Source: Patescibacteria group bacterium
GTDB taxonomy: Bacteria > Patescibacteriota > Microgenomatia > UM-FILTER-40-11
Direction: 5' to 3'
Length of the DNA: 64,000 bases
Assembly (NCBI GenBank): GCA_035530075.1
Contig: DATKVM010000002.1
Location: 24,818 to 88,817 of the forward strand
Shown: one piece after another, positions 8,734 to 51,550 of the stretch
Numbering within the stretch: the first letter of the stretch is position 1
How the letters are laid out: every line of letters starts with the position of its first letter
Made by a program: the position numbers and the translations under genes
The notes under the pieces: model-generated
What the model saw: only the letters and a program-made list of their open reading frames with translations
The model's database searches: none
What the model was told of the DNA's origin: nothing

Positions 8734-10440
8734 CTAGTCCTGACCGACTCGCAACACTTCCTCTAAACTCGTCGTCCCCTCTATTGCTTTCAGATAACCG
8801 TCTTGCTTAAGAGTAATCATCCCTTCGGCAATGGCCGTTTTCTCAATATCGAGAGCCGCTGAATGCTCGATTACTAACCGGGCCACTTTCTCTGTCACCG
8901 GCAGGACTTCAAAAATCCCAATCCGACCGAAATAGCCCGTATTATTACACTCGGGGCAGCCCTTACCGCGGCTTAAAAGAAGCTTCCCGTCGCTTTTCAA
9001 GGGAAAGAGGGAGCCCAAAACTGTTTCGATGCCTGCCCGAACATCAGGTGGTGGTTCAAAGGTTTCCTTGCAACTAGCACAAATCCGACGGCAGATTCGC
9101 TGAGCGACAATCGCCGTTAAAGTAGAAGCGAGCAGAAAAGGTTCGGCTCCCATATCTAATAATCGGGGCATCGCCTGAGAAGCACTTTTTGTGTGAATCG
9201 TGGAAAAAACTAAGTGGCCAGTTAACGAAGCTTGAATCGCCAAATCGGTCGTCTCTCGATCGCGGATTTCCCCGACCATAATAATGTTCGGATCCTGCCG
9301 CAAAAAAGACCGCAAACCAGAAGCAAAGGTTAATCCGGCACCCGGATTAATTTGCACTTGATTGACGCCGAGAATCTGGTATTCAACCGGATCCTCAAGG
9401 GTAACAATATTGACTTTGGTCGTGTTAATCTTGGAAAGAATCGAGTAAAGAGTGGTCGTTTTCCCGCTTCCCGTCGGTCCACAGATAAGGATAATCCCAT
9501 GCGGTCGCAAGATAGCATCTTCCAGGTTTTTTAAGGCCCGGCCGCGCAAACCAAGCTCCAGCAATGTCGGCACTCCGCCACTTTTTTTCAAAAGCCGCAT
9601 CACGATTTTCTCACCGTGAACCGTAGGTAGGGTAGAAACACGCAAATCCACCTCTTGGCCGTCGGCCTTAAAATTAAAGCGGCCGTCTTGAGGAATCCGC
9701 TTTTCGTCAATTTTCATCCCCGTTAAAACCTTAATCCGAGAGACCAACGCTTCATGCACGCTTTTAGGCAAAACTAATTTTTCGTGCAAAATACCGTCAA
9801 TCCGGTAACGAATCCGGGTTTTTTCAGCTGACGGTTCAATGTGAATATCCGAGGCGCGGGAGCGGATCGCAAATTCTAAAATGGTGGAGACAATTTTAGC
9901 AATCGGCTCCCGGCGAATAACTTCAGCGTCACGAGTAATATCCAGGGTTTTCTCTTGGCCGACGGCTGTCTCTTTCAAAGCCGCCGTAACTTCCGTGGTT
10001 AAATTTTGAGAATACCGCTCATTAATCGCCCGGTTAATATCTTCCGCCAGAGCCAGATAGACTTTAATTTTCTTACCGGCTTTGGCTTCGATAAATTCAA
10101 TCGCCTCCAAATCCCAAGGGTTAGCAAAAGCGACGGATAACTCTTTACCATCGCCGGAAATAGCAAAGGGGATTAAATTAAATCTTTCGGCAACCGACTT
10201 GGGGACAAGAGCTAAAACTTCCGGAGCCGACCCGACTTCCTGCAGGCCAACAAAGGGAATATTAAAAAGTTCTCCCTTGACCTTGGCGATTTCTTTTTCC
10301 TCCACCCCTCCCAGTTTTTTTAGGATTTCCTCTTCTGGCCGGCCGGAGGCGGCAAACTCTAACTTAACCTTTTCCGCCTGTCCGGGAGTTAAAAGTTTTT
10401 TTGTGAGAAGAAGCTTTGTTATACTTAGGGAATCGGGCAT
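8734..10440 (-). CDS. pilB: type IV pilus assembly ATPase PilB (GspE family)
   Basis: 568 aa. Has an N-terminal GSPII-E_N-like region, Walker A GPTGSGKTTT, a tetracysteine CxxC...CxxC and the GspE signature. Confidence 0.9.
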   Translation of the reverse strand: MPDSLSITKLLLTKKLLTPGQAEKVKLEFAASGRPEEEILKKLGGVEEKEIAKVKGELFNIPFVGLQEVGSAPEVLALVPKSVAERFNLIPFAISGDGKELSVAFANPWDLEAIEFIEAKAGKKIKVYLALAEDINRAINERYSQNLTTEVTAALKETAVGQEKTLDITRDAEVIRREPIAKIVSTILEFAIRSRASDIHIEPSAEKTRIRYRIDGILHEKLVLPKSVHEALVSRIKVLTGMKIDEKRIPQDGRFNFKADGQEVDLRVSTLPTVHGEKIVMRLLKKSGGVPTLLELGLRGRALKNLEDAILRPHGIILICGPTGSGKTTTLYSILSKINTTKVNIVTLEDPVEYQILGVNQVQINPGAGLTFASGLRSFLRQDPNIIMVGEIRDRETTDLAIQASLTGHLVFSTIHTKSASQAMPRLLDMGAEPFLLASTLTAIVAQRICRRICASCKETFEPPPDVRAGIETVLGSLFPLKSDGKLLLSRGKGCPECNNTGYFGRIGIFEVLPVTEKVARLVIEHSAALDIEKTAIAEGMITLKQDGYLKAIEGTTSLEEVLRVGQD

Positions 10441-42124: not shown

Positions 42125-43033
42125 TTAAGCGTTGAATTTAAATTCAATAATATCTCCTTCTTTTACGAAGTAATCTCTTCCTTCAAGTCTGACTTTCCCT
42201 GTCTCCGCCGCGCCTTTCCATCCCCCACTTTCCACCAATTCCTCAAACCCCACTACTTCTGCCTTAACAAACCCTTTGGCCATATCAGTATGGACCTCTC
42301 CGGCTGCATCAAGGCTGGTTTTCCCTTTTTGCAGGCTCCAGGCGCGGACCTCCTTTCCTCCTTTAATCGTATAAAAAGTTATTAAGCCCAGGAGCTGATA
42401 TGCTTTTTTGATTAATTTGTCCAAACCGCTTTCTTCGATTCCCATTTCTTTAAGATACTGTTTTCTCTCTTCTGAAGAAAAATCTGCCAAGTCTGCCTCC
42501 AGTTTGGCGCAAACAGGCACTAGTTCAACTTCTTCCTCTCCCACCTTAATCCTAGACGGCCATTTTTGGTCTTTTAGTTGATCTTCAGAAACATTAAGAA
42601 CATAAATCGTCGGCTTTTTGATTCCCCCCAACTGAAGCTCAATATTCACTATCTCAATATCCCTTCTGGGATCAATTGTCTCATAATAATGGCTGACATC
42701 AGGATTGGTAAACATCCGGACAATATGAACAATGGCCGCTACCTCTCTTATCTTTCCCAAAAATTGATTTCCCAGTCCTTCTCCTTTATGAGCGCCTTTA
42801 ATTAAACCAGCAATATCAATAAATTCCACTGAAGCAGGAGTGGTTGTTTGGGGTTTTATTAGTTGAGAGAGTCTTTCTAATCTTTCATCAGGAACCGGAA
42901 CAATGCCCACATTTGGCTCAATGGTGGTAAAAGGAAAGCTCTCGACCTTGGCCATTTGCCGAGAAAGCAAGGCATTAAACAAGGTGGATTTCCCGGCATT
43001 AGGAAGACCGACTATCCCCAAAGAAAGACTCAT
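42125..43033 (-). CDS. ychF: ribosome-binding ATPase YchF (Obg-family GTPase/ATPase), short form
   Basis: GIVGLPNAGKSTLFNAL, a DIAGLIKGA switch, NxxD variant and a C-terminal TGS domain GDIIEFKFN. Confidence 0.88.
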   Translation of the reverse strand: MSLSLGIVGLPNAGKSTLFNALLSRQMAKVESFPFTTIEPNVGIVPVPDERLERLSQLIKPQTTTPASVEFIDIAGLIKGAHKGEGLGNQFLGKIREVAAIVHIVRMFTNPDVSHYYETIDPRRDIEIVNIELQLGGIKKPTIYVLNVSEDQLKDQKWPSRIKVGEEEVELVPVCAKLEADLADFSSEERKQYLKEMGIEESGLDKLIKKAYQLLGLITFYTIKGGKEVRAWSLQKGKTSLDAAGEVHTDMAKGFVKAEVVGFEELVESGGWKGAAETGKVRLEGRDYFVKEGDIIEFKFNA

Positions 43034-43958
43034 AATTTCCTCTCAACAATTTAGCAATTAATAGCGAAATTAGACTTAAAGCTTAAATCTAATTTCGTCT
43101 AACAAAATATACTTCACATTGATCACTCAATGAAAATCTCTCTGGTTCTGAAAAACTATTTCCCATCGATTTTAAAACGGCATCCGTCCCCTGATCAGTA
43201 TAAGTAAAATTGTCAAAAAGAACTCCGCCCCTAAACACTAACAATCTAAAATATTCTTCTAGCACTCTTGGCTCATAACGCGTTGCCCCAAAAAAATCAT
43301 AAATTAAAGAAAAACTTCCGCTTGCAAAGGGAGCCTCCCGGGCATCAAACCGGAGGTATGGAATGTTACCCCCCGACTGTAATTTTGCAATATCTCCACA
43401 AACCAACTGATAAGGATCGCCAAGAGCACTTCTAAGTCTTTTTTCAACACTCGCATTGTTTGAAGCTGGGGACAAAATGCGTATTTTATCATTACCTGAC
43501 AGAGGCAAAGAAAGTCCTTGGATAACCTTGGATAATGCTACAATTTCCTCTTCATTTAGACTGGACGACCAATTTTCCAAACTTCCCCCACGAGAATAAG
43601 TATTTACAAGATATTCTGCTAAATCATCCATAAACTAAAGTATAGCAAAATTTATATATCTTTTAAAAAAACAAAATCTTTTCTATTATAAATTTCTCCT
43701 TGCCTTTATAAAAAATGCCAATCAATTGCTTTCGATTCAATTTTGACATAAATAAAATAGTGAAATGATGTGTGGGTATATTTTGTTATTAGACAAAAAT
43801 AGTTGTTGCCTCCGGAACCTTAGCTTTAACAATTCTGCCCAAGTAATCTCTCTGAAGAATTTCCCTTGCTTTATTTTTCTTTGGAAGCACTAGTTTGAAG
43901 TAAAAATCAAAAGTAGGGGCAGTGAAAAGTGAATCCCGATAGAAAGTGACATATGAAA
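43015..43958. repeat. direct repeat copy A (about 0.95 kb): ychF 5' end, paralog A gene and about 330 bp upstream
   Basis: Three blocks are near-identical to copy B: 43015-43046, 43089-43150 (about 60/60) and 43876-43958 (about 90%). The coding middle has diverged. Confidence 0.8.
43089..43631 (-). CDS. small class-I methyltransferase-fold protein (degenerate motif I), paralog A
   Basis: FDAREAPFASGSFSLIYDFFGA...LEEYFRLLVFRGGVLFD matches methyltransferase motifs post-I, II and III. The Gly-rich motif I is not conserved (IRILSPASNNAS). About 50% identical to 46217..46810. Confidence 0.6.
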   Translation of the reverse strand: MDDLAEYLVNTYSRGGSLENWSSSLNEEEIVALSKVIQGLSLPLSGNDKIRILSPASNNASVEKRLRSALGDPYQLVCGDIAKLQSGGNIPYLRFDAREAPFASGSFSLIYDFFGATRYEPRVLEEYFRLLVFRGGVLFDNFTYTDQGTDAVLKSMGNSFSEPERFSLSDQCEVYFVRRN

Positions 43959-44021
43959 CCATTTTACTTCCTATTTAGCTTAAATTACAGCTCTTCTCTG
44001 AGATAAGAGGGAGGTTGTTAG

Positions 44022-46216: not shown

Positions 46217-46810
46217 CTAAGAATGAGGTTGCGTAAGTTCTATCCCCAAAGAAAGACTCATAATTTCCTCTTTACGTCTAACAAAATATACTTCACATTG
46301 ATCACTCAATGAAAATCTCTCTGGTTCTGAAAAACAATCCTCCATTGATTTCAAAACCTCATCAGTCCTCGGAGAGGTATAAGTGAAATAGTCAAGAATA
46401 ACTCCGCCACCAGGCACTAACAATCTGAAATATTCTTTTAATGCTTCTGGATCGTAATATGCTGCTCCCAAAAAATCGCAAATTAAAGAGAAACTCTTAT
46501 CAGCGAAGGGGACCTTCCTGGCATCTAAATGAATAAACGTCTCTTTATCTACAGGTTTTACTAAGGAAATATCCCCACAAACTAGTTGGTAAGGAGCTCC
46601 TAAGCACTCTGCAAGTCTTCTTTCAAACCCTGCTTTGTTTGCAGAGGGTGATAAGATTCGTATCTTGTTTTCGCCCGATAGAGGCAAAGAAAGCCTTTTA
46701 ATAAACTCAGATAATGCTTGGGTCTCTTCCTCATTTCTTAAACTTTCCCAATTTTCAAGAACTCCACCAGGAGAATATTGCCATATAATGTTTTCTGTTG
46801 CCTTGTCCAT
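46217..46810 (-). CDS. small class-I methyltransferase-fold protein, paralog B, with a captured ychF N-terminus at its C-terminus
   Basis: FADKSFSLICDFLGA...LKEYFRLLVPGGGVILD. The C-terminal IMSLSLGI repeats the YchF start MSLSLGI. Confidence 0.6.
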   Translation of the reverse strand: MDKATENIIWQYSPGGVLENWESLRNEEETQALSEFIKRLSLPLSGENKIRILSPSANKAGFERRLAECLGAPYQLVCGDISLVKPVDKETFIHLDARKVPFADKSFSLICDFLGAAYYDPEALKEYFRLLVPGGGVILDYFTYTSPRTDEVLKSMEDCFSEPERFSLSDQCEVYFVRRKEEIMSLSLGIELTQPHS

Positions 46811-46932
46811 TAATATATTATAGCAAAGTATTTAAAAACTCTTCACTCTTTTTCTTCGGAAGCACTAATTTGAAGTAAAAATCAAAAGTAGGGGCAGTGA
46901 AAAGTGTATCCCAATAGACAGTGACATATGGC
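46237..46932. repeat. direct repeat copy B (about 0.7 kb), lacking the 45-bp palindrome found in copy A
   Basis: See copy A. Here the ychF fragment (atgagtctttctttggggata, reverse strand) is fused to the paralog B reading frame. Confidence 0.8.
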
Positions 46933-46976
46933 AATTATACTTGAATTAAGGCTGAAACGGTAGTTTTCCCAAGTGC

Positions 46977-47459
46977 TTAAGGGGCATCGCTTGAAGTGCA
47001 ATGACGAATAAATTCTTCCTTTGTACTTAAAGTTGTCTTCACTAAACAATCCTTACCATCGCTAGTTGCTTGATAGAAAAAATCTGCTTTAGTGTCCGGA
47101 TCCACGGGAATCTCCTTTAAATAACCTTTTTGCTGAACTTCAATTATACTTGTTGGACACTGTCCGATATCTAAACAAAAACGTCTCGCCTGAGTAGATA
47201 TTTCTTGTACTCCCGCCCTCCTAATTGCATCCCTAGCACTTGATAACTGATTTTTAGGCGAAGTAAAAACTAACATCAAAGAAACTAAGATTCCCAAAAG
47301 GGGTACTCCCAGTCCTATCCCCGTAACCCACCACTTCGCTCTTTTACTCCAGGGGGCAATAAACCACATAACGATAAGCCCAATAAGGAAGGTCGGAACA
47401 AACAAAAGAAGAATAATAGTTACCCAACTACGCCAATCCTGGTACCACTTTTTTCCCAT
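46977..47459 (-). CDS. pseudopilin-like membrane protein (GspG/pilin-type C-terminal domain) with an atypical double-TM N-terminus
   Basis: The C-terminus GYLKEIPVDPDTKADFFYQATSDGKDCLVKTTLST resembles the PxDPWG...Y.Y..DG pseudopilin fold. Two N-terminal TM helices. Confidence 0.4.
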   Translation of the reverse strand: MGKKWYQDWRSWVTIILLLFVPTFLIGLIVMWFIAPWSKRAKWWVTGIGLGVPLLGILVSLMLVFTSPKNQLSSARDAIRRAGVQEISTQARRFCLDIGQCPTSIIEVQQKGYLKEIPVDPDTKADFFYQATSDGKDCLVKTTLSTKEEFIRHCTSSDAP

Positions 47460-47471
47460 AATTCTATTGAA

Positions 47472-47801
47472 TCACCACCAAGGGATAATTGCAAATATGT
47501 CAGGAAATAGTTCTACTAGGGTCATCCAAACGGCAACAAAAATAACCACCCAACCCGCAAGTTTATAAACTTTTAGTTTTTGCTGAAGAAAAAGCCAGGC
47601 CATGCTTAGTAGAAAAAAATTAAAAATTATCAAAAAGGGAAATTTTGACTTTATATTCCATCGTTCGATTAAATATATCACCAAAAGCAAGAGAAAAATT
47701 GTAGACCGACCTAGCAACCTTACAACAATCAAAACTGGATTTTTCGTTTTAGGCCATCTGAATTTCTGGTCTGAATTGTCTCTATTTTCCATATATCTCA
47801 A
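47472..47801 (-). CDS. small membrane protein, 109 aa
   Basis: Three hydrophobic helices. Confidence 0.45.
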   Translation of the reverse strand: MRYMENRDNSDQKFRWPKTKNPVLIVVRLLGRSTIFLLLLVIYLIERWNIKSKFPFLIIFNFFLLSMAWLFLQQKLKVYKLAGWVVIFVAVWMTLVELFPDIFAIIPWW

Positions 47802-47820
47802 CTTCCCATAATACCACTAA

Positions 47821-47850
47821 TAGCTTACTTGAGGCTAAAAGACGAGGCTC
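47821..47850. promoter_or_regulatory. 30-nt conserved motif copy 1 (TAGCTTACTTGAGGCTAAAAGACGAGGCTC), a candidate operator
   Basis: 28 of 30 positions match 48791..48820. On the minus strand it lies just upstream of a TGgTATTAT -10-like box for gene 47472..47801. Confidence 0.45.
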
Positions 47851-47852
47851 GG

Positions 47853-48032
47853 TTACTTTCGTTTATATCCCCAAGGCATTCTGCCAAAACCGTGACCCTT
47901 TTGGTCAATTCGATGGATATTGAAAGATTGGCACTTTGGACATTTCATTTCCACGACTCTTTTACCTGTCCCAAATGGCGCTTCCCAAATATGGCCGCAA
48001 TCCTCACATTTAATTTTTTTAACTCCATTCAT
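47853..48032 (-). CDS. zinc-ribbon mini-protein (59 aa, CxxC-18-CxxC), not in the ORF track
   Basis: MNGVKKIKCEDCGHIWEAPFGTGKRVVEMKCPKCQSFNIHRIDQKGHGFGRMPWGYKRK. A strong GGAGGTGA Shine-Dalgarno sits 7 nt upstream of the ATG. Confidence 0.6.
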   Translation of the reverse strand: MNGVKKIKCEDCGHIWEAPFGTGKRVVEMKCPKCQSFNIHRIDQKGHGFGRMPWGYKRK

Positions 48033-48038
48033 TAACCC

Positions 48039-48320
48039 TCACCTCCCTTTTTCAATCCTAATCGCCTTACCCAAGATAATTGCCCGGGCAATTTTTTTAT
48101 GAGCACTTTCCAAAAGCCGGGCAAAGGTCGGTTGGGAAATTTTCATTTTAGCGGCCGCCTCTTTTTGTTCCAAGCCATCAACTTCATGGAGTTTTAAGGC
48201 TTCAAGCTCATCGGGCAATAAAATCTCCTCTTCAAGTAATCGGAGAGGAACGCCTCGAGGCTTAAAGTAATAAACATTAGGCTTAAAGCGCAAACAGCGT
48301 GGTCTTCTTGGCCTGGGCAT
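48039..48320 (-). CDS. DUF134-type HTH DNA-binding protein (sigma-70 region-4-like helix)
   Basis: RFKPNVYYFKPRGVPL...LEALKLHEVDGLEQKEAAAKMKISQPTFARLLESAHKKIARAI, an HTH of family UPF0251/DUF134. Confidence 0.7.
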   Translation of the reverse strand: MPRPRRPRCLRFKPNVYYFKPRGVPLRLLEEEILLPDELEALKLHEVDGLEQKEAAAKMKISQPTFARLLESAHKKIARAIILGKAIRIEKGR

Positions 48321-48330
48321 ATTTATTAAT

Positions 48331-48573
48331 TTATTTTAATTCTTCTTCTTCCTTCTTAACATCTTCCAGCTCTTCCTCTAAAGCTTTTCGGTATTCGGAA
48401 AGAGCCTGCTTTTGGTCTTCCGTTGTTTGCGGCCAATTCCAGCCGAAATAACGGCCCAATCCTCTTCCGGCACCAAATCTTCTTCTCCAGCCTAAGCCCA
48501 AACCACAAGGCCCAAATCCTCTCCCGGTTCCTGGCCCTTGACCGAGAGGACCAGTTCCATCAAATCCTGACAT
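48331..48573 (-). CDS. Gly-rich small protein with a C-terminal acidic coiled coil, DUF5320-like
   Basis: GFDGTGPLGQGPGTGRGFGPCGLGLGWRRRFGAGRGLGRYFGW followed by EEELEDVKKEEEELK. This class is often paired with DUF134. Confidence 0.55.
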   Translation of the reverse strand: MSGFDGTGPLGQGPGTGRGFGPCGLGLGWRRRFGAGRGLGRYFGWNWPQTTEDQKQALSEYRKALEEELEDVKKEEEELK

Positions 48574-48790
48574 ATTAACCCACCTCCTTTGCTCTCAGTG
48601 TTATGAATATATATTCATTATATCAGGCAACAAAGCTTTGTCAAGCAGTCAATTAAAACTCAAATTATGGCATTATGGAGTGGGCTATCCCCCCCTTTTT
48701 CATCTCTCTTGGTTAATCTTCTGAAGTTAAAAAATATCGATTCCGACTTAAACTATCCCAATTGAAAAGCTTGACATAGTAGGCCAATCA

Positions 48791-48820
48791 TAGCTTACTT
48801 GAAGCTAAAAGACGAGGTTC
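48791..48820. promoter_or_regulatory. 30-nt conserved motif copy 2 (TAGCTTACTTGAAGCTAAAAGACGAGGTTC)
   Basis: It sits about 13 nt upstream of GATATAAT (48831-48838) and the ATG at 48847. That places it over the -35 region of a probably leaderless methyltransferase mRNA. Confidence 0.45.
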
Positions 48821-48846
48821 TCAAGCAAATAAGATATAATTATTTC

Positions 48847-49425
48847 ATGTACACGCTCGATGAATTAAGGAAGGATATTTGCTTTGAAAAAACCTTAAGA
48901 GGCCAAGAGTTTAAATTTTGCAGCACTTGGGGGCTTTTCAGTCCTGAAAGAGTTGACGAGGGAACCGAACTTTTGATAAATCACCTCGATATAAAACCAA
49001 ATGACATATCTCTAGATTTAGGTTGTGGGTATGGGGCTATTGGCTTAACCGTAGCTAAGCTTTCACCTCAAGGAAAGGTTCATTTGGTAGATAAAGATTA
49101 TGTGGCAGTTGAGTATTCAAAGAAAAATGCCCAAGCTAACAAGATTGAAAATTGTGAAATTTACTTAAGTGACGCCTTTGAGAAAGTTCCAGATATTCAA
49201 TTCGATAACATTATTTCTAATTTGCCCGCCAAAGTCAGCAAAGAGCTTTTCTGGATTATCTTCCTAGGGTCAAAAAAGTATTTAAAGCCAGACGGAAAGT
49301 TTTATGTGGTAACTATTTCCGGGCTAAAGGAATTCATTAAAAGAAACTTTAATGAAATTTTTGGCAACTACGAAAAATTAGGGCAAAGTAAAACTTATAC
49401 TGCCGCCGTGGCTATCAACGAGTAA
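48847..49425 (+). CDS. class-I SAM-dependent methyltransferase (small-domain RsmC/RlmG-like). The ATG at 48847 is preferred over the track TTG at 48799.
   Basis: Motif I LDLGCGYGAIGL. Also has an acidic residue in VHLVDKD and an NLPA site in place of NPPF/Y. Confidence 0.7.
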   Translation: MYTLDELRKDICFEKTLRGQEFKFCSTWGLFSPERVDEGTELLINHLDIKPNDISLDLGCGYGAIGLTVAKLSPQGKVHLVDKDYVAVEYSKKNAQANKIENCEIYLSDAFEKVPDIQFDNIISNLPAKVSKELFWIIFLGSKKYLKPDGKFYVVTISGLKEFIKRNFNEIFGNYEKLGQSKTYTAAVAINE

Positions 49426-51023: not shown

Positions 51024-51461
51024 TTATCTTCCCCTTGACGTCCTTGGTCCTCCTGACACTCCTCCCGGTCTTTCAGGAGTTGGGGCCGCCCCCGGCCGAC
51101 GCTCCATCGCCTGAACCTCAATATTGTTGGCAACATCTCTAACACCAGGAGTCCAATAAGCGTCAGTGTAAGCCAAAGGACTGGTTCGAGGGTTGCGGAC
51201 TGCTCCCGAAAGGGTGGCGGTCGCGCCGCTAACATGAACGTCAATGTTGTGAGCATCAGACATCGGAATTCCCGGATCAGCGACAATATTATCTTTAACC
51301 AGATCGACTATTTCGTTATCATCTAAAACATAATTATTGTTGTAGTCATACAAGTCCAGGTCGGTCCAGCCCGTCGGCGCTCCCCACCAGAATGGTCCAG
51401 TCGTTCCCCCTCCTGGGCCCATTCCTCCCCAGCCGTATCCTCCATACCCATATGGTGGCAT
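51024..51461 (-). CDS. BON-domain protein with a Gly/Tyr/Trp-rich N-terminus
   Basis: IDVHVSGATATLSGAVRNPRTSPLAYTDAYWTPGVRDVANNIEV is a BON domain. The N-terminus is MPPYGYGGYGWGGMGPGGG. Confidence 0.6.
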   Translation of the reverse strand: MPPYGYGGYGWGGMGPGGGTTGPFWWGAPTGWTDLDLYDYNNNYVLDDNEIVDLVKDNIVADPGIPMSDAHNIDVHVSGATATLSGAVRNPRTSPLAYTDAYWTPGVRDVANNIEVQAMERRPGAAPTPERPGGVSGGPRTSRGR

Positions 51462-51550
51462 ATATTATCACCCCCTTTCTTAAGATAAATTTACCCCGAC
51501 TTATTGAAGTTTAAGTTAAAAGACGGTAATCTTTCGGCAAGAAAGAGGGA

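What the first reader, a model, noticed from the sequence alone, without database searches (positions are those of the whole stretch)
47821..48820. Duplicated 30-nt motif overlapping two promoters next to a DUF134 HTH, DUF5320 and zinc-ribbon gene cluster
Seen in sequence: TAGCTTACTTGAGGCTAAAAGACGAGGCTC at 47821 and TAGCTTACTTGAAGCTAAAAGACGAGGTTC at 48791 match at 28 of 30 positions. Both contain a short hairpin core AGCTT-ACTTG-AAGCT.

Copy 1 sits immediately upstream of a TGgTATTAT -10-like box for the 109-aa membrane gene. Copy 2 overlaps the -35 position of a GATATAAT -10 box and ATG (48847) of a probably leaderless methyltransferase mRNA.

Both copies start spurious TTG-initiated ORFs in the six-frame track.

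Inference: these are operator sites for the adjacent DUF134 HTH protein (48039..48320). That would define a local regulon of zinc-ribbon, membrane, pseudopilin-like and methyltransferase genes.
Basis: partly seen in the sequence, partly recalled or inferred. Interest (0 to 1): 0.5.

Follow-up and report, generated by a model that had tools for sequence, protein, structure and literature searches.

The report
Duplicated ychF promoter copies, not operators
The two 30-base repeats are real, but they are leftover copies of the promoter and first codons of the nearby ychF gene that now sit in front of other genes; the neighbouring DUF134 regulator most likely binds a different, far more widely conserved palindrome.

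Summary
The repeat is real: 33/37 identical at 47814-47850 and 48784-48820, the only two strong copies in 64 kb. The organism is a Patescibacteria (CPR) MAG.

Read on the minus strand, the strand of the DUF5320-DUF134-Zn-ribbon trio, the motif is CCTCGTCTTTTAGCYTCAAGTAAGC followed by a -10 box. Relatives carry the same element:
- L012 has four copies in 3 kb.
- L103 has two.
- L015 and L102 have one each.

The copies in L012 and L015 that lie directly upstream of the real ychF gene identify the family. Five other copies, including window copy 2, are followed by ATG and decayed ychF codons (MSSFSIGIV*, against YchF MSLSIGIVG).

So the motif is the promoter part of a serially duplicated ychF promoter plus 5'-end module. 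The copies mark junctions where different genes have been inserted. The invariant -35-region half suggests they still act as promoters, or as a factor-binding site.

The DUF134-operator reading is not supported. About 95 CPR DUF134 loci were examined, and only this small clade has the motif. In contrast, 72 of 84 loci scanned carry TTGACA-N16/17-TATAAT immediately followed by the palindrome TGAATAnnTATTCA (window 48604-48617). That palindrome is the better operator candidate. The finding is ordinary, with a useful by-product.

The parts
48784..48820 (-). Copy 2 of the motif. The 30-mer CTCGTCTTTTAGCTTCAAGTAAGCTATGAT spans 48816->48787; its -10-like TATGAT is 48792-48787.
   Evidence: Orthologous to L012 4439-4468.
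48748..48777 (-). Decayed ychF 5' fragment following copy 2. The ATG lies 9 nt after the -10 and encodes MSSFSIGIV*.
   Evidence: Compare real YchF N-termini MSLSLGIVG, MALSIGIVG and MSNLSIGIVG.
47814..47850 (-). Copy 1 of the motif. The 30-mer spans 47846->47817 and begins 5 nt after the Zn-ribbon stop codon. Its own -10 is degraded to TATTAG.
   Evidence: The same position after the Zn-ribbon stop is seen in L012, L103 and L102.
47808..47816 (-). TGgTATTAT extended -10-like box in front of the membrane gene (ATG 47792, or TTG 47801).
   Evidence: Sequence. Homology with L012 ends at GCTAT just upstream.
48617..48644 (-). Main trio promoter P1: TTGACA, 16 nt, TGaTATAAT (12/12 consensus match).
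   Evidence: Conserved in 79 aligned CPR loci.
48604..48617 (.). Palindrome TGAATATATATTCA overlapping the -10 and transcription start of P1. Candidate DUF134 autoregulatory operator.
   Evidence: Only site in the window with up to 1 mismatch.
48331..48573 (-). DUF5320 gene.
   Evidence: PF17253, E=6.6e-15.
48039..48320 (-). DUF134 (UPF0251) HTH gene, sigma-70 region-4-like.
47853..48032 (-). 59-aa Zn-ribbon gene, specific to this lineage.
47472..47792 (-). 106-aa membrane protein gene downstream of copy 1.
48835..49425 (+). RsmC-like methyltransferase. Its TATAAT (48835-48840) lies 6 nt before ATG 48847, so the mRNA is probably leaderless.
46925..46963 (-). Degenerate third copy: CTACCGTTTCAGCCTTAATTCAAGTATAAT, 6 nt, then ATG encoding MSLSIGIHFS.
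43874..43955 (-). Fourth, more degenerate copy. It is 82 nt and 94% identical to 46849-46930, with a ychF' fragment MSLSIGIHFS. It lies inside a called 57-aa ORF.
42125..43033 (-). The real ychF gene (MSLSLGIVGLPNAGKST...). Its own upstream motif is degenerate in this species.

Best explanation
The two repeats are the promoter portion of a duplicated module. The module consists of the ychF promoter plus the first codons of ychF. Positions run from about -37 (CCTCG...) through a -10 box to roughly codon 8 of ychF.

In this small CPR clade the module has been copied several times along the stretch between the DUF5320-DUF134-Zn-ribbon trio and ychF. Different genes lie between the copies in different species. 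The ychF codons in the extra copies have decayed. The promoter part, especially CTCGTCTTTTAGC at the -35 region, has stayed almost invariant across species.

Inferred, not shown: the copies still work as sigma-70-type promoters, or as a factor-binding -35 element, that drive the next gene on the minus strand, often as leaderless or short-leader mRNAs.
- Copy 1 sits at the Zn-ribbon/membrane-gene junction, where a new TGnTATTAT box has replaced the original -10.
- Copy 2 is an upstream, secondary promoter-like element about 140 nt before the trio's main promoter. It points toward the trio.

The DUF134 protein most likely autoregulates through the palindrome TGAATAnnTATTCA at the main promoter, not through this motif.
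For: 1. Orientation and anatomy. Ten copies in five genomes share (C)CTCGTCTTTTAGCYTCA at a fixed distance from a -10 box. The box is a perfect TATAAT in 6 of 10. Nine of ten are co-directional with the next gene. Sequence upstream of CCTCG is unrelated in every copy.

2. Homology to ychF. In L012 and L015 the motif lies directly upstream of the real ychF ATG. Copy 2, the window's third and fourth copies, L012 a and c, and L011 continue with ATG and MSSFSIGIV*, MSLSIGIH, MSLSIEIV, MSSLSVGI or MSLSIGIV. Real YchF begins MSLSLGIVG, MALSIGIVG or MSNLSIGIVG.

3. Selection on the promoter part. Between the window and L012 the motif is 94% identical. The leader between the motif and P1 is about 50% identical and coding DNA 85-88% (visual estimates from the alignment). 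L103, whose intergenic DNA shows no comparable conservation with the window's, keeps 12-13 of 13 bases of the 5' half.

4. In L102 the next gene is convergent, and only there is the -10 half lost.

5. Leaderless architecture, with a -10 box 5-10 nt before the ATG, is common in this genome. Distances from -10 to ATG for motif copies are 6-15 nt.

6. The element is not an RNA. Rfam gave no relevant match at the gathering threshold or at E up to 5, and folding z-scores are near zero for the window copies.

7. The DUF134 operator is better explained by the CPR-wide palindrome.
Against: The -35 hexamer at 17-nt spacing is TCGTCT, only 3/6 to TTGACA, although canonical TTGACA promoters exist in the same genome.

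Both window copies have degraded -10 boxes (TATGAT, TATTAG). Their present activity is therefore uncertain. Copy 2 would give a 200-nt leader that runs through an already perfect promoter.

Near-total invariance of the 13-nt 5' half is more than a weak -35 would need. It could mean that a dedicated DNA-binding protein is the real reason for conservation.

No transcription data are available. The rest of the genome could not be scanned: the metagenome scan returned only the same locus.
Confidence: 0.68

Rival explanations
1. Operator sites for a locally encoded regulator, defining a small local regulon. This is the first reader's idea, with either DUF134 or the lineage-specific Zn-ribbon protein as the binder. 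The protein would bind CCTCGTCTTTTAGCYT at the -35 region of each promoter copy and switch the downstream genes together.
For: Copies cluster within about 5 kb of the trio in three lineages and are absent from the other roughly 60 kb of the window.

The 5' half is invariant beyond what a weak -35 needs.

The Zn-ribbon gene and the motif co-occur in all four lineages that have the gene, with the motif starting 4-6 nt after its stop codon.

The 5' half persists in L102 even without a downstream co-directional gene.
Against: For DUF134: no motif in the other roughly 90 DUF134 loci examined, no similarity to the family-wide palindrome, and no conserved dyad.

For the Zn-ribbon protein: the co-occurrence is confounded by shared ancestry and physical adjacency. 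There is no evidence that the protein binds DNA.

Local clustering is equally explained by local duplication of the ychF module.
Confidence: 0.17
2. Attachment-site-like repeats. The ychF promoter and 5' end would be a target at which circular DNA carrying the same about 70-nt segment integrates, by a Campbell-type or site-specific event. Each event would duplicate the segment and restore ychF. The repeats would then be scars of integration rather than functional elements.
For: Direct repeats with a sharp common 5' boundary flank blocks of unrelated genes.

Four different genes follow the Zn-ribbon-adjacent copy in four lineages.

Strain variant L011 switches sequence right after a ychF' fragment.

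ychF' fragments sit at the left end of inserted blocks, as expected for insertion into a gene's 5' end.
Against: No integrase or recombinase gene is present in any of the arrays.

The trio, which lies between two copies, is syntenic with BON/DUF2795/AI-2E neighbours in L014 and L103, so it is not obviously mobile.

The motif was not found in viral contigs.

Cross-species invariance of the promoter half argues for ongoing function, not neutral scars.
Confidence: 0.1
3. A structured RNA element, such as a terminator, attenuator or small RNA, built around the AGCTT-ACTTG-AAGCT hairpin.
For: A short dyad TAGCYT-N5-ARGCTA is present in most copies. L012 copy b keeps a 5-bp stem with a different loop.
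Against: Folding energies do not differ from shuffled sequences for the window copies on either strand (z -0.36 to +0.56).

The dyad is broken in L012 d, L015 e and L103 f.

There is no Rfam match to the motif. The terminator scan found no terminator-like site at either copy.
Confidence: 0.03

Closest known systems
Sigma-70-type promoters of leaderless genes
   Same: A -10 TATAAT sits at a fixed position and a co-directional start codon follows 6-15 nt downstream. Many other genes in the window have the same architecture.
   Different: The -35 region is a conserved non-canonical 13-mer, CTCGTCTTTTAGC, instead of TTGACA. The whole -37 to -7 stretch is repeated nearly verbatim at several neighbouring junctions.
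Integration of SXT/R391 elements into the 5' end of prfC, where the element supplies a new promoter and N-terminus (recalled from my own knowledge, not checked here)
   Same: Foreign genes lie next to duplicated copies of the promoter and first codons of a conserved translation-associated GTPase/ATPase gene. The intact gene remains at the end of the array.
   Different: No integrase and no recognisable mobile element are present. The copies are old and conserved between species. The mechanism of duplication is unknown.
Autoregulatory palindromic operators overlapping the -10/+1 of an HTH repressor's own promoter (for example LexA or TetR-type logic)
   Same: This applies to the palindrome TGAATAnnTATTCA at 48604-48617. 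It has dyad symmetry, overlaps the transcription start, and co-occurs with the regulator gene across 72 of 84 loci.
   Different: This describes the neighbouring palindrome, not the 30-nt motif in the finding. Binding by DUF134 is untested, and I found no paper on DUF134 function.

Membership tests
Operator of the DUF134 HTH protein | The site co-occurs with the regulator gene across genomes that share a conserved DNA-binding domain. | tested here: not met
   The motif is present only in the window species, L012/13, L014/L103 and L102, plus a diverged copy in L015. It is absent from the 80 GTDB-representative loci and from L096-L101.
Operator of the DUF134 HTH protein | Dyad or repeated half-sites suited to a dimeric HTH, conserved among copies. 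| tested here: not met
   The dyad TAGCYT-N5-ARGCTA is broken in 3 of 10 copies. The invariant part, CTCGTCTTTTAGC, is asymmetric. There is no similarity to the family-wide palindrome.
Operator of the DUF134 HTH protein | Specific binding by the protein. | not testable with these tools
   Needs EMSA or footprinting.
Sigma-70-type promoter | A -10 hexamer close to TATAAT at a fixed position. | tested here: met
   Perfect TATAAT in 6 of 10 copies, TATATT in one. Window copies have TATGAT and TATTAG, the latter with an adjacent TGgTATTAT.
Sigma-70-type promoter | A -35 hexamer close to TTGACA, 16-18 nt upstream. | tested here: not met
   TCGTCT at 17 nt, 3/6 matches. The promoter scan did not call either copy.
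Sigma-70-type promoter | A co-directional gene start at a suitable distance. | tested here: met
   Nine of ten copies. ATG lies 6-15 nt after the -10 in several, for example L103 f with 6 nt and L012 d with 8 nt.
Sigma-70-type promoter | A mapped transcription start. | not testable with these tools
   No transcriptome data were available.
Paralogous copies of the ychF promoter plus 5' end | Homology to the sequence directly upstream of the real ychF gene in relatives. | tested here: met
   L012 7542-7571 and L015 7294-7328 precede the ychF ATG (nhmmer E=2.7e-9 and 1.2e-3).
Paralogous copies of the ychF promoter plus 5' end | Followed by an ATG and codons matching the YchF N-terminus. | tested here: met
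   Copy 2 gives MSSFSIGIV*. Third and fourth copies give MSLSIGIH. L012 a and c and L011 are similar. For copy 1 only a weak trace remains (GTTGAGATATA against ATTGAGATAGT), which is inconclusive.
att site or target duplication of a mobile element | A recombinase or transposase associated with the repeats. | tested here: not met
   No such gene between or next to the copies in the window, L012 or L103.
att site or target duplication of a mobile element | An empty site in a relative. | tested here: inconclusive
   L014/L103 lack the copy upstream of the trio but keep the one after the Zn-ribbon gene. No simple empty-site arrangement was found.
Structured cis-regulatory RNA or terminator | A stable or covarying secondary structure, or a match to a known family. 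| tested here: not met
   the terminator scan.

The most novel reading that the evidence does not exclude
The 5' end of ychF is a recurrent insertion hotspot in this CPR clade. Promoter-less genes are repeatedly captured behind a portable about 70-nt ychF promoter/5'-codon module, which acts both as the recombination target and as the expression signal. A dedicated factor, possibly the lineage-specific Zn-ribbon protein encoded right next to it, recognises the invariant CCTCGTCTTTTAGC element. That would be an integron-like or prfC/SXT-like gene-capture site without a recognisable integrase.
Probability: 0.12. Interest if true: 0.55.

Novelty: new member of a known kind. Interest (0 to 1): 0.3.

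Why it matters
For the finding itself, the result corrects an attractive but wrong regulon assignment. The repeats are relatives of the ychF promoter, not DUF134 operators.

Two things are worth keeping:
- The trio-to-ychF stretch is a gene-turnover hotspot, punctuated by conserved promoter copies and dead ychF starts. This is a concrete case of how small CPR genomes wire newly acquired genes into expression.
- The comparison exposes a near-universal CPR cis-element, TTGACAAA-N16/17-TATAAT-GAATAnnTATTCA, in front of DUF5320-DUF134 operons. It gives a precise, testable binding site for two families of unknown function. These operons are often followed by metal or ion transport genes.

Tried and rejected
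- Exact-motif scan of GTDB representative genomes: 0 hits.
- Metagenome scan: returned only a 1.3-kb contig of the same locus. The rest of this organism's genome could not be surveyed for further copies.
- Viral contigs: 0 hits.
- Rfam at the gathering threshold and at E up to 5: no match to the motif.
- RNA folding of eight copies: no signal for the window copies.
- Short submotif CGTCTTTTARC: not enriched in the window beyond the two copies and one site upstream of the BON gene.
- Mobile three-gene cassette bounded by direct repeats: considered and set aside. The trio is syntenic with BON/DUF2795/AI-2E neighbours in L014 and L103, and no recombinase is present.
- Conserved coding N-terminus: rejected.
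- Zn-ribbon homologue search: only three clusters, too few for an independent co-occurrence test.
- Literature searches for DUF134, DUF5320 and UPF0251: no functional study found.
- Sequence search of DUF134 against solved structures: only marginal sigma-region-4, DeoR-type HTH and response-regulator (PhyR-like) hits.

Full report
**Observation.** The two 30-mers are at the stated positions and match 28/30. The repeat extends to 33/37 at 47814-47850 and 48784-48820, 970 nt apart. Allowing 3 mismatches there are exactly two matches in the 64-kb window and none in 100 shuffles. The two TTG ORFs exist.

**Local gene map.** The window comes from a Patescibacteria (CPR) MAG. Minus-strand genes:
- DUF5320, 48331-48573
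- DUF134, 48039-48320
- a 59-aa Zn-ribbon protein, 47853-48032
- a 106-aa membrane protein, 47472-47792
- a 160-aa protein, 46977-47459
- two paralogous methyltransferase-like genes and a PPDK_N protein
- ychF, 42125-43033

An RsmC-like methyltransferase runs divergently on the plus strand. A 12/12 consensus promoter, TTGACA-16-TGaTATAAT at 48644-48617, precedes DUF5320. It is immediately followed by the palindrome TGAATATATATTCA at 48604-48617.

**The motif in relatives.** I fetched contigs encoding DUF134 proteins 82-93% identical to the window's. I also fetched 80 loci from GTDB representative genomes and contigs found through the Zn-ribbon protein.

Read on the strand of the trio, the motif is CCTCGTCTTTTAGCYTCAAGTAAGC followed by a -10 box.
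- L012 (DUF134 93% identical, different flanking genes) has four copies within 3.1 kb, all on the gene strand: upstream of the trio, between Zn-ribbon and a HAD hydrolase, between HAD and a 410-aa gene, and 8 nt before the ychF ATG.
- L103 has one copy right after the Zn-ribbon gene (TATAAT, 6 nt, ATG of a YbaK-like gene) and one 4 kb further on.
- L015 has a diverged copy upstream of ychF.
- L102 keeps only the 5' half after the Zn-ribbon stop, where the next gene is convergent.

A profile of the copies finds nothing in the other roughly 90 DUF134 loci.

**What the motif is.** The alignment of ten copies shows three things:
- CTCGTCTTTTAGC is almost invariant.
- The box at the -10 position is a perfect TATAAT in six copies.
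- Sequence 5' of CCTCG is unrelated in every copy.

The copies in L012 and L015 are the real ychF promoters. In six other copies the motif is followed, at the same spacing, by an ATG and codons that match the YchF N-terminus before decaying:
- MSSFSIGIV* after window copy 2
- MSLSIGIH... after the degenerate window copies at 46934-46963 and near 43952
- MSLSIEIV... and MSSLSVGI... in L012
- MSLSIGIV... in strain variant L011

Real YchF begins MSLSLGIVG, MALSIGIVG or MSNLSIGIVG. The repeat family is therefore a set of paralogous copies of the ychF promoter plus its first codons. The 30-nt motif is the promoter part.

**Is it still functional?** In the window-L012 alignment, by visual estimate, coding DNA is 85-88% identical and the leader between the motif and P1 about 50%. 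The motif is 94% identical and P1 plus the palindrome about 95%. L103, whose intergenic DNA shows no comparable conservation with the window's, keeps 12-13 of the 13 bases of the 5' half. The ychF codons decay while the promoter part does not. The -10 half is lost only where no co-directional gene follows (L102). Many genes in the window have a -10 box 5-10 nt before the start codon, so leaderless transcripts are the norm here.

This supports, but does not prove, that the copies act as promoters for the next gene. Three points weaken the case:
- The -35 hexamer TCGTCT is poor.
- Both window copies have weakened -10 boxes. Copy 1 relies on an adjacent TGgTATTAT.
- The invariance of the 5' half may instead reflect a dedicated binding protein.

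**Why not a DUF134 operator.** DUF134 is 65-93% identical across the CPR loci examined, so its recognition sequence should be conserved too. The 30-nt motif is not. What is conserved is TTGACAAA-N16/17-TAT(A/T)AT-GAATAnnTATTCA:
- The palindrome, with up to 1 mismatch, lies within 2.5 kb upstream of DUF134 in 72 of 84 loci, mostly 160-500 nt upstream.
- There are only 12 hits in 1.03 Mb elsewhere in those loci.
- There is a single site in the window.

It overlaps the -10 and transcription start, the classic position for autorepression. The motif shares no half-site with it.

Copy 2 points away from the methyltransferase. Its orthologue in L012 has no divergent gene. The nearest methyltransferase orthologue has its own leaderless promoter and no reverse motif in the 122 nt available. 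The methyltransferase starts at ATG 48847, not at the TTG inside the motif.

**Other readings.**
- Mobile cassette or att site: fits the direct repeats, the sharp 5' boundary, the four different genes after the Zn-ribbon-adjacent copy in four lineages, and the L011 strain variant. However, no recombinase is present and the trio is syntenic with its upstream neighbours in L014 and L103.
- Local regulon controlled by another trio protein, for example the Zn-ribbon protein that always sits next to a copy: cannot be excluded.

**Verdict.** The thing itself is an ordinary kind of feature, duplicated promoter copies, with an informative history. The more useful result is the by-product: a CPR-wide candidate operator for DUF134.

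Noticed in passing
window 48603-48644 (minus strand); 79 related loci: Near-universal cis-element in front of CPR DUF5320-DUF134 operons: TTGACAAA-N16/17-TAT(A/T)AT immediately followed by the palindrome GAATAnnTATTC. It is found in 72 of 84 loci, against 12 hits in 1.03 Mb of flanks. It is a candidate autoregulatory operator for DUF134. I found no paper on DUF134 function.
   Followed up: partly
L015 5279-6385; L096 10648-13157; L097 1975-6877; L099 9493-10608: In other CPR genomes the DUF5320-DUF134 pair is followed by metal or ion transport genes: YibE_F, chromate transporter, ArsP permease, thioredoxin_3, a P-type cation ATPase, VIT1 and cupredoxin. This hints at a role in metal or ion homeostasis.
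   Followed up: no
window 47853-48032; L012 5262-5441; L103 about 10080-10255; L102 315-494: The 59-aa Zn-ribbon protein exists only in this small clade (three clusters in 5.8 billion proteins). It is 97% identical between the window and L012. In all four lineages it is followed within 4-6 nt of its stop codon by the motif's 5' half.
   Followed up: partly
L011 1-60, against window about 46850-46907: A strain-level structural variant. After the ychF' fragment (TATTGGGATA), contig L011 continues with an L012-like leader (GTAGTTTTGAAATTCCACACCACTATCCG) instead of the window sequence, and the contig ends there.
   Followed up: partly
window 43874-43955 and 46849-46930 (minus strand): An 82-nt repeat, 94% identical, containing the ychF' fragment. 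The copy at 43789-43962 was called as a 57-aa gene by the source annotation and is probably not a gene. The genes downstream of the two copies (46217-46810 and 43089-43631) share a C-terminus and look like paralogues.
   Followed up: partly
window, many gene starts (for example 17259, 17619, 22982, 28393, 46810, 48847, 59620): A -10-like box (often TGCTATAAT) sits 5-10 nt before the start codon with no Shine-Dalgarno sequence. Leaderless mRNAs appear common in this genome. The trio operon is an exception, with a strong GGAGGTG.
   Followed up: no
L014 4540-4640; L103 9540-9640: In the relative that lacks the motif upstream of the trio, that intergenic region carries a different tandem repeat: ACCATTGCCG-N8-TGAGAATWA, twice.
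   Followed up: no
window 51515-51525 (minus strand), upstream of the BON-domain gene 51024-51461: A third exact CGTCTTTTA(A)C match, in CCGTCTTTTAACTTAAACTTCAATAAGTC. It may be another very degenerate copy of the motif, or it may be chance.
   Followed up: no
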